Assembly: GCA_002433895.1 (NCBI GenBank)
Contig: DJJA01000003.1
Span: 175,788 to 239,787, forward strand
Length of the DNA: 64,000 bases
DNA from: Candidatus Gottesmanbacteria bacterium UBA6580
GTDB lineage: Bacteria > Patescibacteriota > Microgenomatia > UBA10105 > UBA927
Reading direction: 5' to 3'
The notes under the pieces were generated by a model. The model was not told where the DNA came from and made no database searches. It was given only the letters and a program-made list of their open reading frames with translations. Position 1 is the first letter of the stretch. Every line of letters starts with the position of its first letter. Made by a program: the position numbers and the translations under genes. Shown here in pieces: positions 15,440-29,023 of the stretch.

Positions 15440-15443
15440 ATAA

Positions 15444-16153: not shown

Positions 16154-16573
16154 ATGGCAAAACGAAGTGAAATTAAGGAACAACAGGAAAAGTTTATAGC
16201 TGAATTTAAAAGCCTACGCTCGGCCGGTAACGTGTTGGTTGCCTGTCAAACCCTAGGTTATGCGCGTAGCACTGTGTATCATTGGCGAATAATTGATGAG
16301 GGGTTTGCCCACCTTTGGGATGAAACGGTGCTTGATGGATTTGACATACGTGCCGATGAAGCTGAAAACGCCCTACGGTTAGCAATTACCAAAGACCGTA
16401 ATATCACTGCCATTATTTTTACCCTTAAAAACTTACGGCCAGACAGATATAGGGAAAGGTTTGACGTTGAGTATAAAGGTAAGATTGCAAACGAACTAAA
16501 GCAGAACTTTTTAGCTACTTTAAGTAGATTGGGGAAAAATGCTGATGAACAATTACGAAGGAAAAAAATATAG
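16154..16573 (+). CDS. HTH-domain protein (terminase-small-subunit-like or transposase-like HTH)
   Basis: The N-terminus KEQQEKFIAEFKSLRSAGNVLVACQTLGYARSTVYHWR shows the pattern of phage TerS/HTH_Tnp-type helix-turn-helix. It is the only plus-strand gene in a run of minus-strand genes. AAGG is 4 nt upstream of the ATG. Confidence 0.35.
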   Translation: MAKRSEIKEQQEKFIAEFKSLRSAGNVLVACQTLGYARSTVYHWRIIDEGFAHLWDETVLDGFDIRADEAENALRLAITKDRNITAIIFTLKNLRPDRYRERFDVEYKGKIANELKQNFLATLSRLGKNADEQLRRKKI

Positions 16574-16590
16574 CAACGAATATAGGACCC

Positions 16591-17184
16591 CTATTTTTTA
16601 GTAAACACTAATTTACCCCTTGTTTTCCTGTTTTCATCATTGGAGTAATATCCCTCAAGTTTCTTGTTATTTATTACATCTAAATATGTAAAACCCTCGT
16701 GCATACCACCAGATACTGAGTTAAGTAAGGTTTTTGAGCGAGCCTTACTCCGATAAGCATAAACTAAAAACCATTTACCATTTTCCTTTTGTTTGAGCCT
16801 AGCAAAATAACTTTCAAAGTCTGAACTATTGCCAAAGTCACCTTCAATGTATAAGGTTGAGTAGCTTTGAGTTATTGTAGCGATACCTGAGCCCTTTTTG
16901 CCATTATTAAATGTACTTTCATATTTTATTTGCCAACTACCAGTTAATACTGGGTACTCATAAAAACCGACTAGTTTACACAACAAAAATGCCAACCATT
17001 GTTCTTTCCAAAGCCATTTATCCCAAGCGTAATATAACCCATAAATTATGAAGCTCACAGTTCCAACTGACGCAATGAATGAAGCAATGCCATTTCCTAA
17101 AATCCCCCCTATCCATTTAGCTATAACTTGGATTAACGCAACTAATATTACGATTGAGGTGATGTATTTTTGTTGATCTTTCAT
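16591..17184 (-). CDS. 2-TM plus C-terminal beta-rich domain protein, candidate Cap15-like CBASS effector
   Basis: 197 aa. It has two N-terminal TM helices (ITSIVILVALIQVIAKWIGGILG..., ASVGTVSFIIYGLYYAW) and a roughly 130-aa beta-rich C-terminal domain. It overlaps the upstream nucleotidyltransferase gene by 4 nt. Confidence 0.45.
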   Translation of the reverse strand: MKDQQKYITSIVILVALIQVIAKWIGGILGNGIASFIASVGTVSFIIYGLYYAWDKWLWKEQWLAFLLCKLVGFYEYPVLTGSWQIKYESTFNNGKKGSGIATITQSYSTLYIEGDFGNSSDFESYFARLKQKENGKWFLVYAYRSKARSKTLLNSVSGGMHEGFTYLDVINNKKLEGYYSNDENRKTRGKLVFTKK

Positions 17185-18020
17185 ATATTAAAAAATTGGC
17201 GAAAATAACTGTTTGCTAACGTTTCCGACGTTGCCCTTGCCGCGGCATTTAATTGTGGCAACTTATTGGCAATATGTTGCCTGAAGGCTATAAAACTTTG
17301 AGGAGACCATTCATTTTGTGAAATAACTATTTTATCCCCTGCAACAGTTGTGAATGTTGAAACGAAACTTTGACCAACCATATGGCTAAGTATGTTATTT
17401 AGCGAATACGCTAAGTCATTACCAAATGAATTGTCTGTATAGCTATAAACTAAACACTCAATATAAAAAGATGGGGCAATGTTTTTTAAGTTCCAATTAT
17501 TAACATAATTTTTCAACATTCTTACTAACTTTTTATAATTGTTGTTTGTACGCTGGTTTTTAGCTTGCCCGTTAGCAAGATGGGTCTTGGGATAGTTTCT
17601 TATGCTTTGAGCGATAATCAGTGGTTCCCTGTATTGATTAAGTTGAACAGCTGTGGACCTTATTGCAGGAACGATATCTGCTTGTTTGGTATTAAGGTTT
17701 ACTGTTAAACATTTATGACCAATTGTTACCATCCCCATATAGTTTTGATTTGCTTCCAGTTTATTTTTAATGTCATAAAAAAGGTTGCTCGGCTGACTTG
17801 AGCCTGTTAATAGGCTCATAAGTGGGTTATGAACGGCAACTATGTCAACATCGTTAATATCGGATATCGCTGTATCATTAGCGTAGCTTCCTTGCAAAAA
17901 AGTTTCGTAATTCGGTAAAAGTGCCCTAATGTTGTTGTGAAGGGAAGATATATCGGTCATTGTGGTTTGTGAAACCCCGCTTGAAACCTGACTAATTAAT
18001 CCTTGTGATACGTACGACAT
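17181..18020 (-). CDS. CD-NTase/SMODS-like nucleotidyltransferase (candidate cyclic-oligonucleotide synthase)
   Basis: GS...DxD Pol-beta NTase motif (LQGSYANDTAISDINDVDIVAV). A third acidic residue sits in hDhVPa context (KQADIVPA) about 55 aa later. There is a downstream helical region (YKKLVRMLKNYVNNW). 279 aa. The start lies 1 nt after the hsdS stop. Confidence 0.5.
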   Translation of the reverse strand: MSYVSQGLISQVSSGVSQTTMTDISSLHNNIRALLPNYETFLQGSYANDTAISDINDVDIVAVHNPLMSLLTGSSQPSNLFYDIKNKLEANQNYMGMVTIGHKCLTVNLNTKQADIVPAIRSTAVQLNQYREPLIIAQSIRNYPKTHLANGQAKNQRTNNNYKKLVRMLKNYVNNWNLKNIAPSFYIECLVYSYTDNSFGNDLAYSLNNILSHMVGQSFVSTFTTVAGDKIVISQNEWSPQSFIAFRQHIANKLPQLNAAARATSETLANSYFRQFFNI

Positions 18021-18021
18021 A

Positions 18022-19251
18022 TTAGTTATTAAATGTTTTAGCTAAAACTGCTTGGGTTAGTTTTGATACCTTTGCTTCCGCGGCCTCAATTTGCTTTTCA
18101 ACTTTATCTGCAAGCTCAAAATAGCTTTTTACCCTTTTTACTATTTCCTTCTGTTCTTCCAGAATTGGAATTTCAATGGGCAAGTTTCTCAAATCCTCCA
18201 AGTTTATCCCTGTATATGCAACTCCCTTCTGTACGTTTGCTAGCCAATATTGTGAAACAGTTGACCCAATATAATATGCGATAAAATCTGGGAAAACTTT
18301 GCTTTTATCTACTGGGACTACTGCTACCTCGCGGGAAACGTTCCATCCCTTCATTTCAGTTGGGACAGCCACGACACCACCTAGCGTTCCACGCACGTTA
18401 ACCAATACCTCACCGCCCATTAGTATCGTCCTTGAGTAACTTGACGATAAAGTAGGTGAAATTCGTTTTAGTCCATTTAATTCAAAATTCAACCATCGGA
18501 CATTACTTGTTCTAAGACACGGAGTCCCATCTTCAATATGTTCTCCCAACTTAATCACACCATAACTTATACCTTTACCTTTTTCGCATAATTCACCCAA
18601 TGCTTTATTTGCCCATACACTATTTAAGTCTTTTATCGTTGACAGCTGTTTCTTCCGCCAATCCTCGGTAAGTTTTCCGGTAATCGCCGCAGTTAAAATT
18701 GCTTGACGAAAATTATTGAGCTGATTTTTAGCACTAGTTAACTTACTAGCAGTTTTATGGATTGAAATAATTTGGTTATTCAGTAAATCGGCAATTTTAT
18801 TTTGAGTTGTTACATCTGGCAACTTTATTGGGATTGTTTTCATTGCAGATTGTGTTAGTTTCAATCTGGTTGTACCTGCAACATAGTCACTAAAATCAAA
18901 ATAATCCAAGTAGTATTTAATAAACCGATTATTTGAAATATCTTTTCTTGCCCTTAAAACGTGTGCGTGATTATTTACCCAACTTTTGCCGTTGATTATG
19001 TACGCGATTGGCTTGGATTTATCCAAAAAGGGGGCGCCATCTTCGCCCAGAAGCACCAATTCCTCATCAAAAATATAATCGTTAATCCAACCTACCTGAC
19101 CTGTTGCTCCATAATAGGGTACCTCACCAATTCTTTTACTTCTGTCATTTGAGTTAATTGGCACCCTTTGGCCATCTAAAATATCAACACAATCTTTAAG
19201 TTGGTATTCCTTCCAACCATTGTTATTTAGTACCGTCTGTGAATTCTGCAT
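18022..19251 (-). CDS. hsdS: Type I restriction-modification specificity subunit HsdS
   Basis: Two target-recognition domains are separated by the conserved central helix (NKIADLLNNQIISIHKTASKLTSAKNQLNNFRQAILTAAITGKL). The C-terminal conserved repeat is present (LEEQKEIVKRVKSYFELADKVEKQIEAAEAKVSKLTQAVLAKTF). Confidence 0.85.
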   Translation of the reverse strand: MQNSQTVLNNNGWKEYQLKDCVDILDGQRVPINSNDRSKRIGEVPYYGATGQVGWINDYIFDEELVLLGEDGAPFLDKSKPIAYIINGKSWVNNHAHVLRARKDISNNRFIKYYLDYFDFSDYVAGTTRLKLTQSAMKTIPIKLPDVTTQNKIADLLNNQIISIHKTASKLTSAKNQLNNFRQAILTAAITGKLTEDWRKKQLSTIKDLNSVWANKALGELCEKGKGISYGVIKLGEHIEDGTPCLRTSNVRWLNFELNGLKRISPTLSSSYSRTILMGGEVLVNVRGTLGGVVAVPTEMKGWNVSREVAVVPVDKSKVFPDFIAYYIGSTVSQYWLANVQKGVAYTGINLEDLRNLPIEIPILEEQKEIVKRVKSYFELADKVEKQIEAAEAKVSKLTQAVLAKTFNN

Positions 19252-20644
19252 ATATTTTTTCCAAGCTATGTGTAGCTTCCTTTAGTTCAGACAGTACGCT
19301 TTTAATAAGTTCTTCAGGTTTGCCAATATCATCACCATTTTCAATATCTTCGTCTTTAATCCACTTAAAACCATCCAACTTGTAATGCTTTTCTTTAACC
19401 TGAGCGATGGTAAACATTTTCCAACGATTTTCTTTGGAGTCAGCTTCTTTACGCGGTGATTGACCATTAGGATTGTCGCCGTAACACTTTTCAAACCCCT
19501 CAAAATGTTTGTGGGTTAGCGGCCTATCTTTAACCGTTATTCCCGGTACATTAGTGCGCGCATCATAAATCCACACGTTTTCCGTGGGTATTCCTTTGGT
19601 AAAAAACACTACGTTGGCTTTAACACCTTGGCTATAAGGGGTAAACGTACCGTTAGGTAAACGTAAAATTGTGTGCAGGTTGCAATCCTGCATCAAAATC
19701 TTAAACACTTCTGCCGCTTGGTCGCCGAAAAGCACGTTGTCGGGCAGTACAACCGCCGCACGGCCTCCCGGTTTAAGGATGGTAAGGATATGTTGCGCGA
19801 AGTTTAGCTGTTTATTGCTTGTTGCAACGGTAAAGTCCTGCCGCTCCGGTACTTGGTTAGCCCCCTTAGTGCCAAATGGCGGGTTTGTCAGTACCACATC
19901 GTACCTGTCACCGCGGTCAGGCTCATAAATGCTGTCGCCTAATCGTATGTTGGAAATAATACCGTGCAGGTATAGGTTCATTAACGCTAACCTGCGTGGC
20001 CTTGCTACTAGCTCCGTGCCATAATAAGTTTTTTCCCTTATACGCTTAATGTCTTCGCGGTTAATTGCACCTTTGCTTTGGTGCATTAACCACTCATAGG
20101 CGCTTAACAAAAATCCACCTGTACCTGCGGCTGGGTCACATATCGTAAAGTCTTTTATTTCCCTTGGGTCGGGTTTCATTACATTGACTATTGCTTGGAT
20201 TAGGACACGGGGAGTGAAGTATTGCCCTGCGCCCTTTTTACCCTCGGCGGCTGATTTTTCTAGTAAACCCTCGTAGGCTTGGGCTTTAACATCAATGTTT
20301 AACCCCGACCAATCAATTTCATCAATAAGGTCAATCAAACGTTTAAGGTTTACTGGTTTGGTGAACTTAGATAGCGCTTCAACAAAAATCGCCCCAAGTA
20401 AACCTTCTTGTCGTGCTAAACCACGCAATAGCTCACTATAAAAATCAATTAACTCAGTGCCAGATTTGGATTTAAGCACTTCCCACGAGTACTTCTTAGG
20501 TATGTCTGCACCCTTTTCCTCCGCCATTTTCAAAAAAAGCAAATAGGTAAGTTGTTCCACATAGTCACCATAATCCATACCGTCGTGCCGGAGTACGTGG
20601 CAGTAACCCCATAATTTGTTAACAATGTTTGTATTAGTTTGCAT
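19223..20644 (-). CDS. hsdM: Type I R-M N6-adenine DNA methyltransferase HsdM
   Basis: LTNPPFGTK (NPPF motif IV), the SAM-binding motif CDPAAGTGGFL, and the HsdM N-terminal domain are present. Confidence 0.9.
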   Translation of the reverse strand: MQTNTNIVNKLWGYCHVLRHDGMDYGDYVEQLTYLLFLKMAEEKGADIPKKYSWEVLKSKSGTELIDFYSELLRGLARQEGLLGAIFVEALSKFTKPVNLKRLIDLIDEIDWSGLNIDVKAQAYEGLLEKSAAEGKKGAGQYFTPRVLIQAIVNVMKPDPREIKDFTICDPAAGTGGFLLSAYEWLMHQSKGAINREDIKRIREKTYYGTELVARPRRLALMNLYLHGIISNIRLGDSIYEPDRGDRYDVVLTNPPFGTKGANQVPERQDFTVATSNKQLNFAQHILTILKPGGRAAVVLPDNVLFGDQAAEVFKILMQDCNLHTILRLPNGTFTPYSQGVKANVVFFTKGIPTENVWIYDARTNVPGITVKDRPLTHKHFEGFEKCYGDNPNGQSPRKEADSKENRWKMFTIAQVKEKHYKLDGFKWIKDEDIENGDDIGKPEELIKSVLSELKEATHSLEKIYAEFTDGTK

Positions 20645-23336
20645 AGGCGTATACCTGTGGCATCGTCGTATTTAATTGGGTAATAAATGGCAACAATCTG
20701 TCGTCAAAATCCGCGTTAATACGCTTAAAACTTCCACCTAAATCTGTAAATATCGGCATTTCATCAAAGTCCTCCTTATCAATGGTTAAGTTTTCAGCCA
20801 AATGTAGTTTTATAAGCTCAATCCATTGTTCCTGTTTTTCATTTAACTTTTGTTTTCCAATAACCTTTTCAACCGCAAGGTCAACCCGTTCTTTGGCTGA
20901 CAATAACGGCTCGTCTTTGGCGGCGTGTTTGACCATTGAAATAATGTCTGCCAAGGGGTATTTATAAGCACGGCGCAAGTTGTCTTCAGTAAATCGCTCA
21001 GGTTGTTTGGATAGTGAGGTGCGCAATTCTGTTAAGGCTTTGGTATTCCACCCTTGGGGCTTACTTAACACAATGCTTATCGCCTCAATATGCTCGGGGT
21101 TATCTTTTACAAACCGCTCAAACTGTTTTAGGTAATCCTCAGGCTTTAGTTCGCGCCCGTCGGTGGTCCTAAAGACAAACTCGGATGTAACTGTGTCTTC
21201 CTGCTCAATCGCCCTTATAAAGCGTTTAGGCGGCCTTGGGTAGTTTTTAAGTAGGTCAATAAAGTTCGGGTCTGTCAGCGTCTTTAATGTGCCAACCCTA
21301 TCCTCACTCAACATATCCGGCAACTTTTTGGCAAACGCGCTTACATCCCCATCGGGTATAAAGTTGGCAAACATTTCCCGCCCTTCAGCGGTGGTATTTT
21401 TAGCAATGCGTTGCAGTCGTTTTACCAAACAGCGTGTGTTGTACTCAACCTCAATGTTGTCGTTTATAGCTTTTATAATTTCTTCAATACTTCTTGTTGG
21501 GTTGGTTGGTGTTACTTGGGTTATACCAGTGCTATTCTTAAATGCCTCAAGCAATGTTCCATCAAAACAATCAAACACGGTAAAGTGTGTTTTTGGCGGT
21601 GTTCCTAAACCGTTAGGGAAGTTTGTGCAAAGACGTGTACCGCGCCCAAGCATTTGCTCAAATAAGATACGGGACTTAACCGGCCGTAAAAACACGATGT
21701 TTTCAATTGAGGGTACATCAATACCGGTTGATAACATATCAACGGTAACTGCAATATGCGGTTCAGGTCTATTCCTAAACTCCTTTATGCGGGTTAATGG
21801 CCTATCCACGGTTGGTGAACCGGTAATTTTCTGTACAAAGGCATCCCCTCGGCCAAATGTATCGCGGCAAATATCAACTAACTGGTCGGCGTGTGAAGTA
21901 TGAGCTAAATCGTTATCAGCAAATATAAGCGTTTTGGGAAACCGGCCAAACTCCTTTTCCTGTTCCAAGGCATACTTAGCAAACTCCTGTATGATTTTGC
22001 GGTTGCTGTCTGGTGCTGTAATATCCCGTTCAACGTCAGCCACATCAAAATGTCGTTCGTCCTCCAATAAATCAAGTTGTTGTGCGCCGGTTTGTGTATC
22101 AACCTGTTCAACTTCCTCGCCTTCTTTTAGGGTAATGCCTTGTATGCGTACACCTGATGCTATCTTTACCGCGTCATAATCAACCAAATATCCATCTTGC
22201 ACAGCCCGCTCATAAGTGTAGCGGTATGCAATTTCCTTAAAGTAACTGGTGGTGTGGGCGGCAGGTGTAGCAGTTAAGCCTATCTTTGTGGCGTCAAAGT
22301 GGTCCAATACTCCGCGCCATTTACTTACTTCGTGGCTTGTATAACCCCTGTGGCACTCATCAGCAATAATCGTGTCAAACGCGTTAATCGGCATTTCAAT
22401 TTTGTCTGCATCATCATCTGGGTCGTAGTCGCCGCTATAACTAAACATACCCTCACGGCCATACAGGTTTATTTGCATCCGTTGGATGGTTGAAATATAC
22501 ACAAACACTTGGTTACCGTCAGGGTCAGTTAAATAGCCTGTGGGAATGACATTAAAATCAACCTTTTCATTGGCCTCAAAATCGTCTACCTTAAAACGTT
22601 GGCTATACACTTGGTAAATCTGGTTAAACTTTAGGCCGTTTTCGGCTTCATACGCGGCAAACTCCATTACTGCTTGGGCGGCAAGGGCTTTTCTGTCAAC
22701 CAAAAACAAAACGCGCTTACTAACACCGGACTTTAGCAGGCGGTAAACTAACGAGGCAATTGTGTAGGTTTTACCCGTACCGGTTGCCATAGCAATCAGC
22801 ATTGACCGTTTATTTTCAGTAATGTTTTTTTCAATCGCTGTTATAGCCTCACGTTGGTAGTGGCGGAGCTTACTATTGTTCGGTGGATTGGCAGTAAACC
22901 AACGTGCGTTACTTTGCGTGTCGCTAGTTAGGTACTCAATTAACGCTTTAGGCGTATGGAACTCCTGTACTTGGCGTGAGCGGCTTGGGGTAATGCGCAA
23001 ATCCTCATACCAAATAACTTCACCATTAGTGGAGTAAATAAACGGGACTGTTAAACCTTGTTGTTGTGCACCTTTAACATAACGATGGGCTTGCTGTAAG
23101 ACGTTTTGCGGACCAAGGCTTATCTTTTTTGCCTCAACAAACGCAATTAACTTACCATTTGCAAATAAGGCATAATCCGCCGGTCCGGTAGTGGTCATAT
23201 ATTCGGTAACCGCTACCTTATGCAAGGTTGAAGTATCCATCCCCTCCTTATAGGGGATTATCTTATCCCAACCAGCCTTTTTTAATTTATCGTCAATCCA
23301 CTTTTTACGAGTGGCTTGCTCGTCAATAATATCCAT
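20634..23336 (-). CDS. hsdR: Type I R-M restriction endonuclease/helicase subunit HsdR
   Basis: 900 aa. The N-terminal nuclease domain is followed by SF2 helicase motifs (MATGTGKTYT Walker A, DECHRG DEAH box). Confidence 0.9.
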   Translation of the reverse strand: MDIIDEQATRKKWIDDKLKKAGWDKIIPYKEGMDTSTLHKVAVTEYMTTTGPADYALFANGKLIAFVEAKKISLGPQNVLQQAHRYVKGAQQQGLTVPFIYSTNGEVIWYEDLRITPSRSRQVQEFHTPKALIEYLTSDTQSNARWFTANPPNNSKLRHYQREAITAIEKNITENKRSMLIAMATGTGKTYTIASLVYRLLKSGVSKRVLFLVDRKALAAQAVMEFAAYEAENGLKFNQIYQVYSQRFKVDDFEANEKVDFNVIPTGYLTDPDGNQVFVYISTIQRMQINLYGREGMFSYSGDYDPDDDADKIEMPINAFDTIIADECHRGYTSHEVSKWRGVLDHFDATKIGLTATPAAHTTSYFKEIAYRYTYERAVQDGYLVDYDAVKIASGVRIQGITLKEGEEVEQVDTQTGAQQLDLLEDERHFDVADVERDITAPDSNRKIIQEFAKYALEQEKEFGRFPKTLIFADNDLAHTSHADQLVDICRDTFGRGDAFVQKITGSPTVDRPLTRIKEFRNRPEPHIAVTVDMLSTGIDVPSIENIVFLRPVKSRILFEQMLGRGTRLCTNFPNGLGTPPKTHFTVFDCFDGTLLEAFKNSTGITQVTPTNPTRSIEEIIKAINDNIEVEYNTRCLVKRLQRIAKNTTAEGREMFANFIPDGDVSAFAKKLPDMLSEDRVGTLKTLTDPNFIDLLKNYPRPPKRFIRAIEQEDTVTSEFVFRTTDGRELKPEDYLKQFERFVKDNPEHIEAISIVLSKPQGWNTKALTELRTSLSKQPERFTEDNLRRAYKYPLADIISMVKHAAKDEPLLSAKERVDLAVEKVIGKQKLNEKQEQWIELIKLHLAENLTIDKEDFDEMPIFTDLGGSFKRINADFDDRLLPFITQLNTTMPQVYAYAN

Positions 23337-23350
23337 ACTTATTTTTATCT

Positions 23351-23548
23351 TTACTTTTTATTCTTATTTTCCTCAATGTAACGCTCAATGTCTTCCAATT
23401 TATAGCGCCTATCACCGACACCCCTGCGTGAACCAATACGGATGGAGGGCAATCGTCCTTCATTATCCCAGCGCCTTAATGTTTCGGGGTTTACGCCTAA
23501 AATATCAGCGGCTTGTTTAATTCTTAGTAGTTTAACGACCGGTTTCAT
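23351..23548 (-). CDS. Excisionase/MerR-family HTH DNA-binding protein
   Basis: LRIKQAADILGVNPETLRRWDNEGRLPSIRIG is typical of Xis/HTH_17 proteins. It ends 14 nt before the hsdR start. Confidence 0.6.
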   Translation of the reverse strand: MKPVVKLLRIKQAADILGVNPETLRRWDNEGRLPSIRIGSRRGVGDRRYKLEDIERYIEENKNKK

Positions 23549-23629
23549 AACTTACACATAATTATACATCGTCAGGCTTGTTTTTGCTCCTCCAAAATTC
23601 ACTTTTACTCCAGTAGACTGTCCTTCACT

Positions 23630-23827
23630 ATGAACTACAGGGATTTGATGGCGGAAGCACGGGCGATACATTTTGCTATGCACCACGGTAGCATTACCTA
23701 TGAGGAAGCACAGGTAAAAGTTAAGCCGGTTTTGGAAATACTAAATAGGAAGAATGCCAAGATAGCGAAAAGACACGGAGTAACCCCACGGAAGTTTACA
23801 TTCCAAAGCCTAGGACGAACTTTTTAG
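23630..23827 (+). CDS. Small hypothetical protein (65 aa)
   Basis: ORF only; divergent from the excisionase-like gene. Confidence 0.3.
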   Translation: MNYRDLMAEARAIHFAMHHGSITYEEAQVKVKPVLEILNRKNAKIAKRHGVTPRKFTFQSLGRTF

Positions 23828-24036
23828 AAAAACGTACTTAGGGATGTTTTTAATGCTTTGGCAATTTTTTCCAGCACCTCAAGGGATGGTGTGTACCTGC
23901 CTTGCTCAATATACCCCATATAAACACGACTGACATTAACTTTATCGGCTAAATCATTTTGGGTTAATCCGCACACCTTCCGCCTTTTTTGGATTTTTTT
24001 ACCTAGCACTTTTGGCAATCTGGCATTTTTCCGCAT
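23824..24036 (-). CDS. XRE-family HTH transcriptional regulator
   Basis: LTQNDLADKVNVSRVYMGYIEQGRYTPSLEVLEKIAKAL is a classic Cro/C1 HTH. ORF 23824..24072; the likely start is MRKN at 24036. Confidence 0.65.
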   Translation of the reverse strand: MRKNARLPKVLGKKIQKRRKVCGLTQNDLADKVNVSRVYMGYIEQGRYTPSLEVLEKIAKALKTSLSTFF

Positions 24037-24162
24037 ATTGTAATTGTGGAAAACGCATCGTCCATAATCCACTAAGCCAGACTAAGCATTTAGCCTTAAA
24101 AAGGGCTTGTTTTTATGCTAAGCATCATTTAGCATTATCTTATTGAGGCAAGGAGGTGAAAT

Positions 24163-24450
24163 ATGGACGTATTACTTAAAACAAGGTGTACCAAAGGCCA
24201 CTTAATCGTTTACGCAGATAAGGTTGCAATTGAAGCGCTTAAGCTACTTGGTTATCAACAATCAAACGCACTCGCCTACAAACAGATTACGGGAGTGGAA
24301 GTAAAAATGACCCAACCGGACATACTCGGCTTAGGACAAGCTACGGTAACTATCCATAGCGCTGGTGGCCAAACACTTATAGCTGACAGGGTAAAACTTA
24401 AGGATGCTAAGGAAGTTGAAAAACTAATCCAGGAACGAATTGCCAAATAA
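24163..24450 (+). CDS. Hypothetical protein (95 aa)
   Basis: ORF with RBS ggaggtg. No recognised domain. Confidence 0.35.
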   Translation: MDVLLKTRCTKGHLIVYADKVAIEALKLLGYQQSNALAYKQITGVEVKMTQPDILGLGQATVTIHSAGGQTLIADRVKLKDAKEVEKLIQERIAK

Positions 24451-24525
24451 TAGTGCGTAAATAAGCTCCATTCAATCGTATTCTTCGTCCGTTTTTCTTA
24501 TAATTGTCTTAATAAGGATAAAAAT

Positions 24526-25317
24526 ATGGATAAAAATGACCCTATCATTAGGGCGGAACTTGAGGAAATAAAAAATTGGCTAATAAAAAGTAGCGAGGTT
24601 GAAGTGGATGAAAAACAGGAATTGGTTGTTTCCATCGTTGCTTTAATTACAAACAAGCGGTTTCAACAAAACATACGACAATTACGGAAAAAATACCAAA
24701 TACCAAAGACTTGGTATACGACTGAAAAACAAAATGATTTATATGCTGAATACTTAAAACACTGCAAGGCACACCCCGACGCACCTACGATGCCGTACGA
24801 TGAACCAATTGTGAACCTGTGTAAAAGAATAGGCGTAGACGTAAAAAAGTACTCCGATTTTGTATTGGGCTATTTATACTACGGCTACGTTTTACCGCTT
24901 AAACCCGACCAAGTTGATTGGTATCAGCCGCTTTTTACAAAGGACGAGCATCGTTACAAAGCAAATATTGAGTTAGATTATGGGGACAGCACTGAGGAAA
25001 AGGAAGAAATGGAAATTAAAAAAGGCTATATACGATTTTACGGCGACACTACCCCCAATCAACTTACCCGCTTCATTAAGGATAATTGGCGGGGCATACA
25101 AGCTATCCAGTCACAACTTAAACCTTATCAGCACACGAAAAAACATAGTCAATTTAGGCGTGACATACTTATATATTTATTTCATTTGTTTGGGAATAAA
25201 TCGCCTGAAATAATGGATAAGATAGTCACAGACGAATTGAATTATCCCCTAGATTATGTTGAGGTACGGCAAATAATAAGTGATTTGAAAAATCGGATAA
25301 ACAAAATCCTTCCATAG
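24526..25317 (+). CDS. Hypothetical protein (263 aa)
   Basis: Long ORF in the island regulatory/replication module. No recognised domain. Confidence 0.4.
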   Translation: MDKNDPIIRAELEEIKNWLIKSSEVEVDEKQELVVSIVALITNKRFQQNIRQLRKKYQIPKTWYTTEKQNDLYAEYLKHCKAHPDAPTMPYDEPIVNLCKRIGVDVKKYSDFVLGYLYYGYVLPLKPDQVDWYQPLFTKDEHRYKANIELDYGDSTEEKEEMEIKKGYIRFYGDTTPNQLTRFIKDNWRGIQAIQSQLKPYQHTKKHSQFRRDILIYLFHLFGNKSPEIMDKIVTDELNYPLDYVEVRQIISDLKNRINKILP

Positions 25318-25536
25318 CTTCAGGTGTGAGTAAAACTCGTTAGGTTTTTCTTTATATTTTCCCCTCCATAAATCCGATACTGATGGTGTAAATCAGTATG
25401 GATAAACAGATAAACATCACCAATAAAGATAACAACATAACGCAAGCCGCAGAACAGTGGTTTAACCTTGCCCTAATGTTGATAAAGATTAAACGCCAAC
25501 AAAAGATGGCGCAATTAAAGATAAAGAATAACGACT

Positions 25537-25776
25537 ATGAGCACAGATAAAACTTTTCAAACTGATAACTTCTTATTAGCTACTTTCCTACTTAGTCAGT
25601 CGTGCAACCTCATTTCCATTGACCGCAGTAATGTTCGCCGTATGGTGTTTGCGTTTGAAAATAACTCCCGCCGAAAAACTTTAACTGAAGATTTTATGGC
25701 TTATAAAAGCGCCATTGAGCCACATAGGTTCTTTAGTGCACAGAAGGATTTACGCGCACTAATCCACCAAAGATAG
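25537..25776 (+). CDS. DUF5659-family small protein (common in phages/integrative elements)
   Basis: FQTDNFLLATFLLSQSCNLISIDRSNVRRMVFAFENN matches the DUF5659 N-terminal pattern (F.t.d..LA.fL...g..L..IDr.dp.r.vF.Fe). Confidence 0.45.
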   Translation: MSTDKTFQTDNFLLATFLLSQSCNLISIDRSNVRRMVFAFENNSRRKTLTEDFMAYKSAIEPHRFFSAQKDLRALIHQR

Positions 25777-25810
25777 GTTCAATCCAGTTGAATTAAAGAT
25801 AAAGATAAAA

Positions 25811-26242
25811 ATGAAAAATTACACGAAGATACCAAATGAAATATTAACTCAATCGCAACTTACCATACCAGCTAGGTACTTATACTGCGCATTGCTAAAG
25901 TATTGTGGCAATGACGATAAGTGTTTTCCAAGTCAGCAGACTTTAGGAAAAGACCTTGGAAGGACACCGCGATACGTTAGGGAATTACTAGGGGAACTTA
26001 TAAGCGCCGGTTTGGTTTATAAAAAAAGGCTGGGTTACAACAGGGCAAATACTTATACGGTATCCAAAGACTTAAAGACATACTGGAACCACGGTTCCTA
26101 TCATATCGGTACAGTATTTCCCCTCCATCAAGGAAATACAGTGCCAGATAAAAGTACTTATATAAAAGGAAAAGGTAAAAGGAGTATTAAGGGTTTGGAA
26201 AAAATGCGAAAAGCGTTAATTGAACAAAGGATTATTAAATAG
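25811..26242 (+). CDS. HTH_36-type winged-helix protein (replication-initiator/phage-regulator-like)
   Basis: IPARYLYCALLKYCGNDDKCFPSQQTLGKDLGRTPRYVRELLGELISAGLV is typical of PF13730. Confidence 0.5.
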   Translation: MKNYTKIPNEILTQSQLTIPARYLYCALLKYCGNDDKCFPSQQTLGKDLGRTPRYVRELLGELISAGLVYKKRLGYNRANTYTVSKDLKTYWNHGSYHIGTVFPLHQGNTVPDKSTYIKGKGKRSIKGLEKMRKALIEQRIIK

Positions 26243-26349
26243 GAGTTTACTTTTTATAAACGACTATTTACTATTGAATAATTAAGTATAATTAAATGTA
26301 ATACTATGAGGCAAGATATAAATTATAAATTATCCAACAAGGAGGAAAT

Positions 26350-27852
26350 ATGAAGGACGAAGTATATGTTTATATAAGGGTTTCAACGTCGGAGCAGGCA
26401 GACGAGGGGTTTTCTATTGATAACCAAAAACGAGCCTGTAAGGAGTTTTGCGAGGCACGAGGTTACCACATAAAGCGGATGTTTGTTGAGGATGGGCGAA
26501 GCGCTAGGACTACCGAAAGACCCGCTTTACAGGAAATGCTCAAGGCCTTGGTAGATACGCCAGTTGGCGCAATTGTTATTTATAAGATTGATAGATTTGC
26601 CCGTAACGTAACCGACTTTTCAAGGCTTTATAACGAGTTTAAGACAAAGGGAATACAGCTCATATCAGTAAGCGAGGGCAACTTAAGCGAGGGGACAAGT
26701 TTAGTGCCAAACATTTTTGCCAGTGTTGCGCAATGGGAGAGCGAAGTTAATAGTCAACGAACACGCGATGCGTTAATGCAAAAGTTTAGGGAAGGCTGGC
26801 AACCAACCCCACCCCCTATTGGGTATAGGAGTGTTGGCGCTGACAGGGAACGAAAAACTTGTGAACCAGACCCATACACTGCACCGATAATACGGGAGCT
26901 ATTTGAGCTATATTCAACCGGCAACTACTCAATTTATGAGTTACAAAATTGGTTAGCCGAACGGGATATTGTTAGTAAAACTGGCACACCCATAGGTCAC
27001 AGTGTAATTGGAACAATACTTAATAATCGGTTTTATTATGGTTGGATTAGCTGGCACGGTGAGGGGAAAACGGGCAAACATATGCCAATTATTAGTAAGG
27101 ACTTATTTGATACGTGCCAATATGTATTAGCAAAACACCGTAACTTCCTAACACGTAATCGCATTCACCAGTTTTTACTCCGCGGGTTCGTACACTGTGC
27201 TGAGTGTGGCCAACGATATACCGCGGAGTGGCATTTTAAGCCTAGATTTACTAAACGAAACGGCAAGATTGCTTATTACCATTGCCCCAAGATGAACCGC
27301 AATGGTTGCCCTGCGCCATACGTGGAGGTGGGTGATCTTGAAAAGTTGGTATTCGACACTGTAAAAGGTGTGCAATTTAGCCAAGATTTTATTGATGCTG
27401 TGGTTGATAAAGCGCGTAGATTTGTTGATGACAGTAGGAAGCGTGCAGGTGGCGATATGCAAGCGTGTATTAACCAGCGCACTGCACTTGAGTTTAAGCG
27501 CAACAAACTTGAAGACGCCTTACTAGATAACACGATTGACCGTACTGTTTTTAAGCGCAAGCACGATGAAATTGAAGCGCAGATTAGGTTAATTGACGAC
27601 CGAACACGCGAGATTGAAGCACAAAGTCACGTTGACATTAAACTTGTTGAGGACGTGCTTAACTTTACCCGCGATGTAGGCAGAACATACGACGAAGCGC
27701 CTGACTTTTTGAAACGACATTTTTTACGCTTCTTTTTTGAAAAGATAATGGTAAAAGATAAGAAGATAGCGGAAGTTATTTACACACCAATAATAGCGCC
27801 GTTAGTGGCAAACCACTCGGTTATAATAAAAAACCTTATGCTCCCCCGGTAG
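26350..27852 (+). CDS. Large serine recombinase (integrase)
   Basis: Resolvase catalytic domain (VYVYIRVSTSEQADEGFSIDNQ...IYKIDRFARN), recombinase domain, and a Zn-ribbon (CAECGQRYTAEWH...YYHCPKMNRNGC). 500 aa. The last 12 nt overlap the tRNA-Asn 3' end on the opposite strand. Confidence 0.9.
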   Translation: MKDEVYVYIRVSTSEQADEGFSIDNQKRACKEFCEARGYHIKRMFVEDGRSARTTERPALQEMLKALVDTPVGAIVIYKIDRFARNVTDFSRLYNEFKTKGIQLISVSEGNLSEGTSLVPNIFASVAQWESEVNSQRTRDALMQKFREGWQPTPPPIGYRSVGADRERKTCEPDPYTAPIIRELFELYSTGNYSIYELQNWLAERDIVSKTGTPIGHSVIGTILNNRFYYGWISWHGEGKTGKHMPIISKDLFDTCQYVLAKHRNFLTRNRIHQFLLRGFVHCAECGQRYTAEWHFKPRFTKRNGKIAYYHCPKMNRNGCPAPYVEVGDLEKLVFDTVKGVQFSQDFIDAVVDKARRFVDDSRKRAGGDMQACINQRTALEFKRNKLEDALLDNTIDRTVFKRKHDEIEAQIRLIDDRTREIEAQSHVDIKLVEDVLNFTRDVGRTYDEAPDFLKRHFLRFFFEKIMVKDKKIAEVIYTPIIAPLVANHSVIIKNLMLPR

Positions 27853-27912
27853 GATTCGAACCTACAACCGTCTTCTTAACAGGAAGCTGCGCTACCGTTG
27901 CGCCACAGGGGA
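27841..27912 (-). tRNA. tRNA-Asn (anticodon GTT)
   Basis: Folded by eye. Acceptor TCCCCTG/CGGGGGA (one G-U), D-arm GCGC-AACGGTA-GCGC, anticodon loop CTGTTAA (GTT), T-arm GTAGG-TTCGAAT-CCTAC, discriminator G. CCA is not encoded. Confidence 0.75.
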
Positions 27913-27930
27913 ATGTGTTTCCTCTAAGTG

Positions 27931-27968
27931 CTACCTCCACCAGTTGGCGGAGCGCTCAGGGGAACGAT
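27931..27968. repeat. Hairpin repeat R1 (imperfect palindrome plus diverged tRNA-Asn 5'-end-like tail)
   Basis: R1 is ctacctccaccagttggcggagcgctcaggggaacgat; compare R2 at 28233-28270. It encodes the C-terminal RSPERSANWWR* of the GIY-YIG protein. Confidence 0.55.
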
Positions 27969-28212
27969 ATATTAATTTTTTAATATGCTCTCTTCCTCGA
28001 TAACTTTTAAGTTGTTTTTCTCTTTTGAGCGTCTCTTGTCTCGTGTTCACTTTTTCTTTATATATGAGTTTCCAGTCACCAGAAAACCTTGATGTATATG
28101 ATCCTTTAAACGTTTTAGAGTTGTGTAAACTTATCCGTTCCTCAATGTCTTCTGTTTGCCCGATATATATTTTATTATTCTCCCTATTATAGACAGCATA
28201 GACATAATACAT
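27931..28212 (-). CDS. GIY-YIG nuclease family protein (small UPF0213-like)
   Basis: MYYVYAVYNRENNKIYIGQTEDIEERISLHNSK...TRQETLKREKQLKSYRGREHIKKLI is the canonical short GIY-YIG protein. ORF 27931..28260; the true start is the ATG at 28212. The upstream extension is translation of the hairpin repeat. Confidence 0.75.
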   Translation of the reverse strand: MYYVYAVYNRENNKIYIGQTEDIEERISLHNSKTFKGSYTSRFSGDWKLIYKEKVNTRQETLKREKQLKSYRGREHIKKLIYRSPERSANWWR

Positions 28213-28232
28213 GGCTATATTATATCGCTGCG

Positions 28233-28270
28233 CTACCTCCGCCAGCTGGCGGAGCGCCACAGGGGAATGT
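28233..28270. repeat. Hairpin repeat R2 (perfect palindrome ctccgccAGCTggcggag) fused to an exact copy of the first 14 nt of tRNA-Asn plus 4 nt of 5' flank
   Basis: R2 is ctacctccgccagctggcggagcgccacaggggaatgt. The tail gcgccacaggggaatgt is identical to 27900-27916. Confidence 0.6.
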
Positions 28271-28319
28271 TAAGAACAAGGGCTATTATATCACGAAATT
28301 TGTTGTATACTGATGCTAT

Positions 28320-28625
28320 ATGTCAAAGAACCCATTTTTAAACGCGTTGGCAGCAAGCGCGTATATTACGTTTATTAGTGTCTTTATGACATGGGGTACC
28401 CATTTTGCACCCAAAGAAGACACGGTGGTTGCGCCAATTGCGATAATTTCTCTCTTTACACTTTCGGCGGCAGTGATGGGATATGTATTTTGCTATACAC
28501 CACTCATGCTCTATATGGACGGCAAGAAAAAAGCGGCAGCCAATTTGTTCCTGCAGACGGTTGGCGTATTTGCCGTACTTACCGGGGTGGCCATAACATT
28601 GATGTTTACGGGAGTTATCGGATAA
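28320..28625 (+). CDS. Small membrane protein (3 TM)
   Basis: 101-aa hydrophobic ORF, followed by a terminator. Confidence 0.4.
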   Translation: MSKNPFLNALAASAYITFISVFMTWGTHFAPKEDTVVAPIAIISLFTLSAAVMGYVFCYTPLMLYMDGKKKAAANLFLQTVGVFAVLTGVAITLMFTGVIG

Positions 28626-28723
28626 CTATGGTTTATCCTGTTACACAGGTAGCGTGTTGTTGTACCTCACTTATGGACGGGGAGGGCATGTCGTAGTGGC
28701 GTAAAAACATATACCGACATATC

Positions 28724-28750
28724 GAACCCCGCCAAAGCGGGGTTTTTTTG
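28724..28750 (+). terminator. Rho-independent terminator
   Basis: AACCCCGC-caaa-GCGGGGTT followed by TTTTTTT. Confidence 0.6.
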
Positions 28751-28786
28751 TGGCAAAAATTATGAATGAAAGGAGGTGGGTGATAT

Positions 28787-29023
28787 ATGGCACTGCAGGA
28801 TGAAATTGAGCGGTTAGTAAATCAGTACGGTGGTGTTGGGAAAGCGAACCAGCACGATCAGGAAAAGGTGCGGCAAATATTGGAACCGGTAGTCAGGGGC
28901 AGATCGAAAACACGTATCCGCGCGTGGCGAGACGGATTGTGGGCACGGAGTAGAGAGCACAATGACCGGTATGCCGATTTAGCGGAAGCGCTGGACAAAA
29001 TGGTTATACCGAGGCGGAAATAA
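28787..29023 (+). CDS. Hypothetical protein (78 aa)
   Basis: Strong RBS aaaggaggtgggtgatatATG. Charged helical protein. Confidence 0.45.
   Translation: MALQDEIERLVNQYGGVGKANQHDQEKVRQILEPVVRGRSKTRIRAWRDGLWARSREHNDRYADLAEALDKMVIPRRK

What the first reader, a model, noticed from the sequence alone, without database searches (positions are those of the whole stretch)
27841..28275. GIY-YIG mini-cassette flanked by hairpin repeats carrying extra copies of the tRNA-Asn 5' end
The 94-aa GIY-YIG gene (27931-28212) lies directly 5' of tRNA-Asn. It is bracketed by two roughly 38-bp repeats built from a palindrome (ctccgcc-AGCT-ggcggag in R2, with one mismatch in R1). Each repeat is followed by a tRNA-Asn 5'-end-like tail. 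R2's tail is an exact 17-nt copy of 27900-27916 (4 nt of flank plus the first 14 nt of the tRNA). R1's tail is diverged. R1 also encodes the last 11 codons of the GIY-YIG protein. This looks like repeated targeting of the tRNA 5' flank by a small hairpin-bounded GIY-YIG element, or stacked att-site remnants. Small GIY-YIG ORFs are usually treated as inert.
Basis: seen in the sequence. Interest (0 to 1): 0.6.

Follow-up and report, generated by a model that had tools for sequence, protein, structure and literature searches.

The report
GIY-YIG cassette inside tRNA-Asn gene
A tiny nuclease gene sits between the promoter and the body of this bacterium's asparagine tRNA gene, with a rebuilt tRNA behind it and a hairpin-marked tRNA stump in front; hundreds of ultra-small (CPR/Patescibacteria) bacteria share this layout, and I found no description of it in the papers I could search.

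Summary
On the minus strand the order is: native promoter and leader, tRNA-Asn positions 1-13, a 16-nt palindrome P (TCCGCCAGCTGGCGGA), tRNA positions 17-28 (together R2), a 93-aa GIY-YIG ORF, a decayed second copy (R1), then intact tRNA-Asn.

R2 is not peculiar to this window. All 80 genome loci that encode this protein family are Patescibacteria. All carry a P-interrupted copy of their own tRNA-Asn 5' end upstream of the ORF. In 48 of 60 loci the ORF's stop codon lies inside the intact tRNA.

Four relatives have the same promoter and leader joined directly to an uninterrupted tRNA-Asn. The cassette is therefore a 354-bp insertion bounded by 17-nt direct repeats. More distant subfamilies show the same design at tRNA-Lys and tRNA-Met.

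R1 is best read as a relic of a tandem cassette duplication.

Even so, P is invariably present, and clustered, at these cassettes.

Best reading: a selfish, homing-type nuclease cassette hard-wired into tRNA genes. How P gets inserted is unexplained. I found no description of this layout.

The parts
28285..28293 (-). Native tRNA-Asn promoter, extended -10 box (TGATATAAT on the minus strand)
   Evidence: The same motif and spacing lie directly upstream of uninterrupted tRNA-Asn genes in empty-site relatives L148, L149, L151 and L152. It is also conserved upstream of the displaced copy in L006, L007, L019 and L076. The simple sigma-70 scan did not call it because there is no -35 box.
28267..28284 (-). 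Native tRNA-Asn leader (...cccttgttcttaacat)
   Evidence: 47 of 49 nt match the leader and promoter of empty site L151.
28254..28266 (-). R2, left part: the displaced native tRNA-Asn positions 1-13 (TCCCCTGTGGCGC)
   Evidence: Identical to positions 1-13 of the functional tRNA. It sits behind the native promoter, exactly where the tRNA starts in empty sites.
28238..28253 (.). R2 palindrome P (TCCGCCAGCTGGCGGA), replacing D-loop AAC; the first base of the inserted DNA if the junction is placed at tRNA 13/14
   Evidence: Perfect palindrome. Predicted RNA hairpin of -10.2 kcal/mol, z -3.4. P with at most 2 mismatches lies within 90 nt upstream of the ORF in 76 of 80 family loci; the remaining loci carry nested or degenerate forms, such as L036. 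The arms are at least 97% invariant.
28227..28237 (-). R2, right part: copy of tRNA-Asn positions 17-28 (GGTAGCGCAGC)
   Evidence: 11 of 11 nt match the functional tRNA. The equivalent segment in other loci matches the local tRNA for 6-20 nt.
28213..28226 (-). Spacer GATATAATATAGCC with a TATAAT box 6 nt before the ATG
   Evidence: Read from the sequence. The closest relatives L005-L008, L010 and L019 also have TATAAT here. Its function was not tested.
27931..28212 (-). GIY-YIG ORF, 93 aa plus stop; the last 10 codons and the stop lie in R1
   Evidence: Pfam PF01541, E=2.4e-15. 477 homologues, all those named being CPR. Invariant residues include Y5, Y16, G18, R26, H30 and E65. AlphaFold2 mean pLDDT 89, with the tail 87-93 below 50. 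Best structural matches are UPF0213 BH0048, Slx1, HIGLE and I-TevI.
27930..27963 (-). R1: decayed tRNA-Asn 5' copy. Positions 1-12 (TCCCCTGAGCGC) at 27952-27963; degenerate P (TCCGCCAACTGGTGGA) at 27936-27951; GGTAGC at 27930-27935.
   Evidence: It differs at 3 palindrome positions between the window and L001. The closest homologues, P0002 and P0003, lack it and end ...SPVAQR*, that is, in the intact tRNA. Equivalent extra copies occur in L017, L027, L034, L044, L046, L062 and L083.
27913..27929 (-). 17-nt spacer ACTTAGAGGAAACACAT. Its last 4 nt (ACAT, 27913-27916) belong to the 17-nt direct repeat. Possibly a remnant of a deleted second ORF.
   Evidence: Intermediate stages, with a full or partial second ORF, are seen in L046, L039, L083 and L044.
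27840..27912 (-). Functional (regenerated) tRNA-Asn(GTT)
   Evidence: ARAGORN. Rfam tRNA model, 61.9 bits. 73 of 73 nt identical to the tRNA of empty sites L148 and L151.
27900..28253 (-). The 354-bp insertion relative to empty sites, with the junction placed at tRNA 13/14. It is bounded by the 17-nt direct repeat 27900-27916 / 28254-28270.
   Evidence: Removing 354 nt in silico gives a sequence that aligns end to end with L151 and L148.

Best explanation
The locus is one copy of an apparently undescribed selfish cassette of Patescibacteria. A minimal, domain-only GIY-YIG nuclease gene lives inside a tRNA transcription unit.

Shown. Compared with empty alleles, about 300-350 bp has been inserted after position 13 of tRNA-Asn. 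The inserted DNA starts with the invariant 16-nt palindrome P. Next come a short copy of tRNA positions 17 to about 30, a spacer and the ORF. It ends with a replacement copy of the tRNA 5' end. An intact tRNA is thus rebuilt downstream, and the native promoter, leader and positions 1-13 are left as a P-capped stump upstream. The ORF has no stop codon of its own. It terminates at the tRNA's U8-A9-G10, or at UAG in the D-loop.

Inferred.
(1) The nuclease and the tRNA are co-transcribed from the tRNA promoter. The host therefore cannot silence or imprecisely delete the cassette without losing what is presumably (not checked here) its only tRNA-Asn. RNase P processing would leave the mRNA without a stop codon, which would limit expression.
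(2) The nuclease breaks tRNA-gene DNA. Its fold is Slx1/UPF0213-like, so it may recognise structure rather than a long sequence. Repair from a cassette-bearing copy, using the tRNA-derived segments as homology arms, copies the cassette into an empty allele (homing).
(3) Recombination between the 13-20-nt direct repeats either deletes the cassette precisely, giving an empty site, or duplicates it in tandem. Window R1 is the relic of such a tandem copy whose second ORF has been lost.
(4) P is an essential cis element. It keeps the displaced stump from acting as a target, as a recombination partner or as a competing tRNA half, and/or it is the nuclease's own site.
For: Architecture of the window.

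Family-wide conservation. 341 genome loci encode relatives. The best 80 are all Patescibacteria. 61 of 80 have tRNA-Asn(GTT) at the ORF's 3' end and none has any other tRNA there. The rest have tRNA-Asn split by a group I intron or cut by a contig end. P with at most 2 mismatches lies upstream of the ATG in 76 of 80, and the others have nested or degenerate forms. P interrupts the copy after tRNA position 13 in 40 of 48 loci, and the exact direct repeat is 13-20 nt in 42 of 48. The stump covaries with the local tRNA: 13/13 identical in 35 loci, and the right arm matches for 6-20 nt. The stop codon lies inside the tRNA in 48 of 60 loci: TAG at positions 8-10 in 35, and at 19-21 in 11.

Insertion status. 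Relatives L148, L149, L151 and L152 have the same promoter and leader fused to an uninterrupted, sequence-identical tRNA, with no ORF and no P.

Signs of a selfish-element life cycle. Truncated ORF in L019. Tandem arrays in L039. Partial second ORF in L083. Two ORFs only 60% identical in L046. An ORF-less stump plus tRNA in L208. R1 is decaying while R2's P is perfect in all sister contigs.

Generality. The same design occurs at tRNA-Lys(UUU) in L298, at tRNA-Lys(CUU) in L294 and at tRNA-Met in L296/L297. P is translated within miscalled N-terminal extensions in 15 of 42 cluster representatives that have such an extension.

The protein. GIY-YIG catalytic residues are invariant. The fold is closest to UPF0213, Slx1 and I-TevI.

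Precedent. Phage SegB, a free-standing GIY-YIG homing endonuclease in a tRNA cluster, cleaves tRNA-containing DNA. It drives tandem tRNA+segB amplification through microhomology between the tRNA 5' end and the segB 3' end (PMC13096335).
Against: No cleavage activity or target is known for this protein. At 83-93 aa it has no DNA-binding domain, so sequence-specific homing is not obviously possible.

The regenerated tRNA is an intact potential target, so the usual immunity of a homing allele is missing, unless recognition includes the native leader.

The tRNA 17-30 segment after P matches lineage-specific bases of the local tRNA. Simple homing between lineages would not produce that. It needs local duplication or gene conversion.

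No close family member is found on viral contigs that could carry it between hosts.

All near-identical strains carry the cassette, so no polymorphism is seen within the species.

Protein similarity roughly follows taxonomy, so long vertical inheritance with losses cannot be excluded.

P also occurs away from any GIY-YIG gene. Its sequence conservation is not explained by a merely disruptive role.
Confidence: 0.55

Rival explanations
1. A nuclease-plus-palindrome system analogous to REP/RAYT. The GIY-YIG protein is the enzyme that makes and moves the 16-nt palindrome P by acting on hairpin or cruciform DNA. The tRNA-linked gene is the single 'master' copy. The P copies in tRNA stumps, introns, leaders, ORFs and hairpin loops are its products.
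For: From the gene's side, P is always present. In the 80 loci, 19 extra P copies lie within about 1.2 kb of the ORF and none in the other ~150 kb. Nested P-in-P and P at several different tRNA positions indicate repeated local insertion. P's arms are invariant while its centre varies. The fold is nearest to structure-specific nucleases (Slx1, UPF0213) that cut branched and stem-loop DNA. P is dispersed at roughly 1 per 40 kb in low-GC contigs and is 4.5-fold enriched at the tips of larger hairpins.
Against: About 100 dispersed P sites have no GIY-YIG gene within 0.8-1.5 kb, and co-occurrence across whole genomes could not be tested. No mechanism is known by which a nuclease alone could insert a constant 16-mer. 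At least one phage family carries a covarying palindrome at a fixed site, which looks like a native structure rather than an insertion. This model does not by itself explain the tRNA duplication or the strict tRNA specificity of each subfamily. It is compatible with the best explanation rather than exclusive of it.
Confidence: 0.25
2. A domesticated, host-beneficial operon. The GIY-YIG protein works on tRNA-Asn or its precursor (processing, quality control, defence). The P-bearing stump is a regulatory or stabilising 5' RNA structure kept matched to the tRNA by selection. The patchy distribution reflects loss.
For: Strict and widespread linkage to one tRNA, with gene overlap. The stump covaries with the tRNA. 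The stump is predicted to fold into a stable extended D-arm hairpin, -20.9 kcal/mol. Several P substitutions keep G-U pairing on the sense strand. The protein is under strong purifying selection.
Against: Close relatives do without it, and have a pristine tRNA gene and an identical tRNA. Truncated, tandem and ORF-less versions exist. Sister subfamilies sit at other tRNAs, in one case downstream of the tRNA. The copied anticodon-stem part is incomplete and ends at variable positions, which looks like DNA-level decay. P's sequence, not only its pairing, is conserved.
Confidence: 0.12
3. Stacked att-site remnants. The partial tRNA copies are left-overs of integrative elements that used tRNA-Asn as an attachment site, and the GIY-YIG gene is incidental cargo.
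For: tRNA-Asn here is an integration hot spot. A ~13.7-kb island with a large serine recombinase abuts the tRNA 3' end. Degenerate 3'-end copies lie downstream of the tRNA in L001, L148, L041, L048 and L064.
Against: R1 and R2 are copies of the 5' end, and they lie on the side opposite the recombinase island. The same structure is present in sister contig L001, which lacks the island, and in 80 of 80 unrelated loci regardless of any integrase. Only ~300 bp, one ORF, lies between the repeats.
Confidence: 0.03

Closest known systems
SegB of T-even phages (free-standing GIY-YIG homing endonuclease in the phage tRNA gene cluster)
   Same: A GIY-YIG nuclease gene lying next to tRNA genes. It cleaves tRNA-containing DNA. 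Microhomology between the tRNA 5' end and the 3' end of the nuclease gene gives tandem tRNA+nuclease repeats that can collapse again (PMC13096335). This parallels the direct repeats, the tandem arrays and the empty sites seen here.
   Different: SegB is a ~220-aa phage protein with a DNA-binding part, and it lies between tRNA genes. Here the protein is an 83-93-aa catalytic domain only, and the element is chromosomal in Patescibacteria. It is inserted within the tRNA transcription unit, overlaps the tRNA with its stop codon, and always carries the palindrome P in a displaced tRNA stump. Sequence similarity is limited to the N-terminal motif.
Intron-encoded and free-standing homing endonuclease genes (e.g. 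I-TevI)
   Same: GIY-YIG chemistry. Presence/absence alleles with clean empty sites. Conserved RNA genes as targets. A cycle of degeneration. The I-TevI catalytic domain is the only PDB sequence hit.
   Different: There is no intron or intein here; host function is kept by duplicating the tRNA 5' third. The insertion does not destroy the target sequence. There is no DNA-binding domain. A constant palindrome is part of the element.
Integrative elements that carry a tRNA 3' end (tyrosine-integrase islands and prophages)
   Same: Insertion into a tRNA gene that regenerates an intact tRNA and leaves a displaced partial copy as a direct repeat.
   Different: Here it is the 5' part that is regenerated. 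The cargo is one ~250-bp ORF. No recombinase is encoded. The displaced copy is always interrupted by P.
REP elements and their RAYT (Y1 HUH) transposases
   Same: A single-copy nuclease-type gene constantly flanked by a short palindrome that is also dispersed in the genome.
   Different: The enzyme class is different (GIY-YIG, not HUH). P is a perfect 16-mer at low copy number (about 1 per 40 kb or less). The gene is fixed at a tRNA. Genome-wide co-occurrence was not tested.
UPF0213 (YhbQ/BH0048-like) and Slx1 GIY-YIG nucleases
   Same: Best structural matches (1ZG2, 6SEH, 7WME), and the same small single-domain size as UPF0213.
   Different: Sequence similarity is low. Those families have no reported link to tRNA genes or to a cognate palindrome (my own knowledge plus the searches).
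Group I introns of Patescibacteria tRNA-Asn, and GIY-YIG-encoding insertion sequences in CPR rRNA genes
   Same: Same hosts, and the same or similar RNA-gene targets. Introns at 35/36 coexist with the cassette in 11 loci (PMC13011429). GIY-YIG ORFs occur in non-intron insertions of CPR rRNA genes (PMC11270868).
   Different: The cassette is not an intron: there is no ribozyme, and an intact tRNA lies downstream. Neither paper mentions it or the palindrome.

Membership tests
GIY-YIG nuclease superfamily | Sequence match to the GIY-YIG catalytic domain | tested here: met
   Pfam PF01541, E=2.4e-15, 57 bits against a cut-off of 22.6.
GIY-YIG nuclease superfamily | Conserved catalytic residues (two Tyr of the GIY and YIG motifs, Arg, His, metal-binding Glu) | tested here: met
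   Y5, Y16/G18, R26, H30 and E65 are invariant in 30 sequences. I assigned them to catalytic roles by analogy with I-TevI and UvrC (my own knowledge).
GIY-YIG nuclease superfamily | Three-stranded sheet with flanking helices (alpha/beta sandwich fold) | tested here: met
   AlphaFold2 mean pLDDT 89, with order E-E-H-(H)-E-H-H. Foldseek hits to 1ZG2, Slx1, HIGLE, I-TevI and UvrC-N.
GIY-YIG nuclease superfamily | Nuclease activity | not testable with these tools
   Needs biochemistry.
Homing endonuclease gene (selfish, DSB-repair driven) | Alleles with and without the element at the same site, with a clean empty site | tested here: met
   Empty sites L148, L149, L151 and L152 against the filled window; removing 354 bp in silico restores collinearity.
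Homing endonuclease gene (selfish, DSB-repair driven) | The encoded enzyme cleaves the empty allele at or near the insertion site | not testable with these tools
The protein lacks a DNA-binding domain.
Homing endonuclease gene (selfish, DSB-repair driven) | The insertion disrupts the target, so the filled allele is immune | tested here: inconclusive
   The displaced copy is disrupted by P. The regenerated tRNA is intact, however, and differs from the native allele only upstream of position -4.
Homing endonuclease gene (selfish, DSB-repair driven) | Patchy distribution, horizontal gain, and cycles of degeneration | tested here: inconclusive
   Degenerate and tandem copies exist, as do empty relatives. 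Gain versus loss was not resolved. Protein similarity broadly follows taxonomy.
REP/RAYT-type palindrome-transposase pair | HUH Y1 transposase | tested here: not met
   The only enzyme is a GIY-YIG protein.
REP/RAYT-type palindrome-transposase pair | The gene is flanked by its palindromes, which are also dispersed in the same genome | tested here: inconclusive
   Here the gene is flanked on both sides, but in most loci only upstream. There are no other copies in the window's 64 kb. Dispersed copies occur in other contigs. A whole-genome census was not possible.
Integrase att-site duplication at a tRNA gene | The duplicated segment is the tRNA 3' part and lies at the far end of an integrase-bearing island | tested here: not met
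   The duplicates are the 5' part, lie 300 bp apart and enclose only the GIY-YIG ORF. The recombinase island is on the 3' side and is absent from L001, which still has R1 and R2.
tRNA (Rfam RF00005), for the functional copy | Full cloverleaf scoring above the gathering threshold | tested here: met
   61.9 bits against 29. R1 and R2 are not detected as tRNAs.
Group I intron in a tRNA | Ribozyme core interrupting the tRNA | tested here: not met
   No Rfam intron hit at 27000-29000. Other loci do have one in the anticodon loop, separate from the cassette.

The most novel reading that the evidence does not exclude
The small GIY-YIG protein and the invariant 16-nt palindrome P together form a new kind of mobile system. 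In it, a structure-specific nuclease acts on hairpin or cloverleaf DNA of highly transcribed tRNA genes. Target choice is set by the tRNA-derived homology arms that flank P, not by protein-DNA sequence recognition. That would explain how one conserved protein-plus-P module has been retargeted to tRNA-Asn, tRNA-Lys and tRNA-Met. P would then also spread on its own as the smallest known non-autonomous element, landing in hairpin loops, introns and reading frames.
Probability: 0.25. Interest if true: 0.9.

Novelty: new variant of a known kind. Interest (0 to 1): 0.78.

Why it matters
Stand-alone 80-100-aa GIY-YIG proteins (UPF0213/YhbQ-like) are very common and have no agreed function. Here one branch has a precise, repeatable genomic behaviour that can be tested directly. 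It occupies tRNA genes, borrows their promoter and even their U8-A9-G10 as a stop codon, regenerates the tRNA, and always travels with one 16-nt palindrome.

If it is a homing-type element, it shows a new way for a selfish gene to invade an essential RNA gene without an intron. It also adds a third class of invader of Patescibacteria tRNA-Asn, besides group I introns and integrases.

It has practical consequences as well. The repeats break assemblies at tRNA-Asn. Gene callers produce false N- and C-terminal extensions (PPAGG, RQLAE, SPVAQR).

If the palindrome is the nuclease's cognate site, the pair could be a compact structure- or homology-guided DNA-targeting module.

Tried and rejected
Rfam at permissive thresholds on 27000-29000 found only the tRNA, so R1 and R2 are not a known RNA family.

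NCBIfam, PADLOC, PHROGs and PDB sequence searches gave only weak N-terminal homing-endonuclease-motif matches. The protein cannot be assigned to a named subfamily.

The simple promoter/terminator scan was uninformative.

Looking for presence/absence among near-identical strains failed: all carry the cassette. My alignment of those contigs failed for several because of a bad anchor, and I did not repeat it.

I searched for the far junction of the recombinase island using the L001 terminator sequence. It was not found, although a later blastn located the flank at 13855-14159.

I tested the idea that P always inserts into hairpin loops. The effect is only a 4.5-fold enrichment, 14% of sites. I tested whether P insertion creates target duplications: 3 of 104 sites. 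I tested whether the bases flanking P extend the palindrome: no.

I tried to recover a P-less allele of a phage site. Instead I found a covarying palindrome family at a fixed position, so not every exact P match is an insertion.

A viral-contig scan for the protein family found only generic phage GIY-YIG motifs.

Six literature searches found no description of the cassette or of P.


Full report
**1. What is in the window**

tRNA-Asn(GTT) lies at 27840-27912 on the minus strand (ARAGORN; Rfam 61.9 bits). Directly 5' of it on the same strand is a 93-aa ORF (27931-28212) that matches the GIY-YIG domain at E=2.4e-15.

Both hairpin repeats exist. The palindrome occurs nowhere else in the 64 kb, against 0.02 matches expected by chance. 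The 17-nt exact duplicate (27900-27916 = 28254-28270) is 13 nt of tRNA plus 4 nt of leader.

Each repeat is a copy of tRNA-Asn positions 1-28 in which the D-loop bases AAC are replaced by a 16-nt palindrome, P.
- R2 = TCCCCTGTGGCGC-TCCGCCAGCTGGCGGA-GGTAGCGCAGC.
- R1 is the same unit, decayed: TCCCCTGAGCGC-TCCGCCAACTGGTGGA-GGTAGC.

The ORF runs through R1 and stops at the TAG of GGTAGC.

**2. R2 is a family-wide feature; R1 is not**

The protein has 477 close homologues, and the named ones are all CPR/Patescibacteria. Most are 83-88 aa and end in ...IPL*...IPR* or ...SPVAQR*. These endings are the tRNA-Asn 5' end read in frame: ATT CCC CTG TAG, or TCC CCT GTG GCG CAA CGG TAG.

A genome scan found 341 loci. 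I examined the best 80.
- 61 have tRNA-Asn(GTT) starting at the ORF's 3' end, and no other tRNA ever takes that place.
- Most of the rest have tRNA-Asn split after CTGT by a group I intron (Rfam hits; compare PMC13011429) or are cut by a contig end.
- The stop codon lies inside the tRNA in 48 of 60 loci: TAG at tRNA positions 8-10 in 35, and at 19-21 in 11.
- P with at most 2 mismatches lies within 90 nt upstream of the ATG in 76 of 80. The other loci have nested or degenerate forms.
- P interrupts a copy of the locus's own tRNA-Asn after position 13 in 40 of 48 analysable loci. The exact direct repeat to its left is 13-20 nt in 42 of 48.
- The copy follows lineage-specific tRNA sequence on both sides of P (TCCCCTG, TCCCGGG, TCCGGCG, TCCGCGA, TTCGGGA ...; the right arm matches for 6-20 nt).

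An extra P-bearing copy between the ORF and the tRNA (the R1 type) is rare. It occurs in the window and its sister contigs, and in L017, L027, L034, L044, L046, L062 and L083.

The window's nearest homologues, P0002 and P0003, end canonically in SPVAQR*. Three of the six differences between the window and sister contig L001 fall in R1's palindrome, while R2's P is perfect in every contig. The R1-encoded tail is predicted to be disordered. R1 is therefore a decaying relic.

**3. It is an insertion inside the tRNA gene**

I traced homologues of the neighbouring 101-aa gene and found four relatives: L148, L149, L151 and L152. In each, the same extended -10 promoter and leader (cgtgaTATAATa..gttcttaacaT) run straight into an uninterrupted tRNA-Asn, with no ORF and no P. 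The tRNA of L148 and L151 is 73/73 identical to the window's. Deleting 354 bp from the window in silico makes it collinear with them.

So the promoter, the leader and positions 1-13 of R2 are the native 5' end of the gene. Everything from P down to the second copy of positions -4 to +13 is inserted DNA. The functional tRNA now lies ~350 bp from its promoter, behind the nuclease gene.

Because the insert is bounded by direct repeats, recombination between them would delete it without a scar, or duplicate it in tandem. Tandem stages are all seen: identical repeats (L039), a partial second ORF (L083), only the last 19 nt of a second ORF (L044), and two ORFs just 60% identical (L046). This is the simplest origin of the window's R1 and its 17-nt spacer.

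**4. The design is general**

A profile search of 1.84 billion cluster representatives gave 586 clusters at E<=1e-10. Where gene callers had extended these ORFs upstream, 15 of 42 extensions translate P (PPAGG, RQLAE, SASWR) or tRNA sequence.

Loci of three distant members confirm the layout at other tRNAs.
- L298: tRNA-Lys(UUU).
- L294: tRNA-Lys(CUU). Both Lys loci have [tRNA 1-22]-P-[32-47]-ORF-intact tRNA, again with the stop at the tRNA's T8-A9-G10.
- L296/L297: arrays of P-bearing tRNA-Met 3' pieces, terminators and GIY-YIG ORFs, downstream of the intact tRNA.

**5. The palindrome**

Among 100 copies in the family loci, the arms (positions 1-6 and 11-16) are at least 97% invariant. The four central bases vary by transitions in 7-12% of copies. 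There is one compensatory double change. The proteins, by contrast, are only 57-78% identical. P is therefore constrained, or continually renewed.

P also occurs in several other settings:
- nested in the centre of another P;
- at other positions of the stump;
- in tRNA 3' remnants;
- in the tRNA's group I intron;
- in leaders.

These copies cluster tightly. 19 extra copies lie within about 1.2 kb of the ORF, and none in the remaining ~150 kb of the 80 loci.

Exact P is also found in at least 120 metagenome stretches, 101 of them in low-GC contexts, and in low-GC viral contigs. Almost none of these sites is near a GIY-YIG gene. Extra copies on those contigs occur at about 1 per 42 kb. 14% sit at the tip of a larger hairpin, against 3% in controls. 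No target duplication is seen. Some are in frame in ORFs. Several lie in duplicated pieces of other tRNAs next to the intact gene: Gln, Gly, Ile, a Met-like tRNA and Asn.

One phage family, however, has a covarying palindrome at a fixed site, so not every match is an insertion.

It fails from the gene's side.

**6. The protein**

The catalytic residues are invariant. The AlphaFold2 model is confident (mean pLDDT 89). It is closest to UPF0213 BH0048, Slx1, HIGLE and the I-TevI catalytic domain. There is no DNA-binding domain. Family libraries give only motif-level matches to homing endonucleases.

**7. Interpretation**

Shown:
- the architecture;
- its conservation;
- its status as an insertion;
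- the direct repeats;
- the tandem and degenerate forms;
- the retargeting to other tRNAs.

Inferred: this is a selfish, homing-type nuclease cassette that uses the tRNA's promoter and the tRNA's own bases as its stop codon. It spreads, or is maintained, by nuclease-induced recombination through the tRNA-derived arms. P acts as an essential cis element.

The closest experimental precedent is phage SegB (PMC13096335).

Weak points:
- there is no activity data;
- the filled allele has no obvious immunity;
- the stump's right arm matches the local tRNA, which needs local duplication or gene conversion;
- the mechanism of P insertion is unknown.

Rivals:
- a REP/RAYT-like nuclease-palindrome pair, which is compatible with the best explanation and may be complementary to it;
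- a domesticated operon;
- att-site remnants, which I reject.

**8. Novelty**

Six full-text searches found no description of the cassette or of P. This includes two recent papers on CPR rRNA insertions and on tRNA introns in Patescibacteria. I class it as a new variant of a known kind (free-standing homing-type nuclease elements). There is a real chance that the nuclease-plus-palindrome module works in a new way.

Noticed in passing
window 14160-27852: A ~13.7-kb island of lower GC content (37-43%). It ends in a 500-aa large serine recombinase (26350-27852, +) whose last 13 nt overlap the tRNA-Asn 3' end. Sister contig L001 lacks the island, and its downstream flank matches window 13855-14159. 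Contigs L002 and L004 break exactly at the tRNA 3' end.
   Followed up: partly
L001:3540-3560; L148:1660-1690 (minus strand): Degenerate copies of the tRNA-Asn 3' end (ATCCTACCGGGGAAGC and ATCCTACAGGGGGAGC) lie 130-200 nt downstream of the tRNA. They look like old attachment-site remnants. In L041, L048 and L064 such remnants also carry P.
   Followed up: partly
L010, L035, L037, L061, L079 (and L045, L056, L057, L059, L062, L078): In these cassette loci tRNA-Asn is additionally split after CTGT (position 35/36) by a group I intron. Rfam RF00028 hits confirm this for the first five, and some introns carry an ORF. tRNA-Asn is thus invaded at three places: the 5' third, the anticodon loop and the 3' end.
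   Followed up: partly
window 28268-28281 versus 27868-27881: The native tRNA-Asn leader (gttcttaaca) is complementary to the tRNA's own anticodon arm (12 of 14 nt). The leader is conserved in the empty-site relatives L148, L149, L151 and L152. Its meaning is unknown.
   Followed up: no
window 57441-57513 (+): A tRNA-Ile with anticodon TAT. This is an uncommon way of decoding AUA in bacteria.
   Followed up: no
L094, L097, L132, L138, L274-L293 (IMG/VR contigs): One phage family has a palindrome at a fixed position that varies symmetrically: AATTCCGCCAGCTGGCGGAATT, AATTCCGTCCATGGACGGAATT and AATTCCTTCCATGGAAGGAATT. The same phages carry exact P in frame in other ORFs (IPPAGG).
   Followed up: partly
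L201:770-1250: A duplicated tRNA-Gly copy, with P replacing 10 nt, lies 175 nt upstream of a different, UPF0213-like GIY-YIG ORF (MSKGFMYILECSDGSYYTGST...). This suggests that other GIY-YIG branches have similar tRNA associations.
   Followed up: no
L267:540-1060: The tRNA-Ala/tRNA-Ile region contains several P or P-like palindromes. One is in a partial tRNA 5' copy upstream of tRNA-Ile. Another is in a 3' remnant downstream of it.
   Followed up: no
record titles: Many of the cassette-bearing MAGs are labelled 'uncultured Gammaproteobacteria', 'Bdellovibrionales' or 'Pseudomonadales'. They nevertheless carry this Patescibacteria-type cassette, so these names are probably placeholder mislabels.
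   Followed up: no
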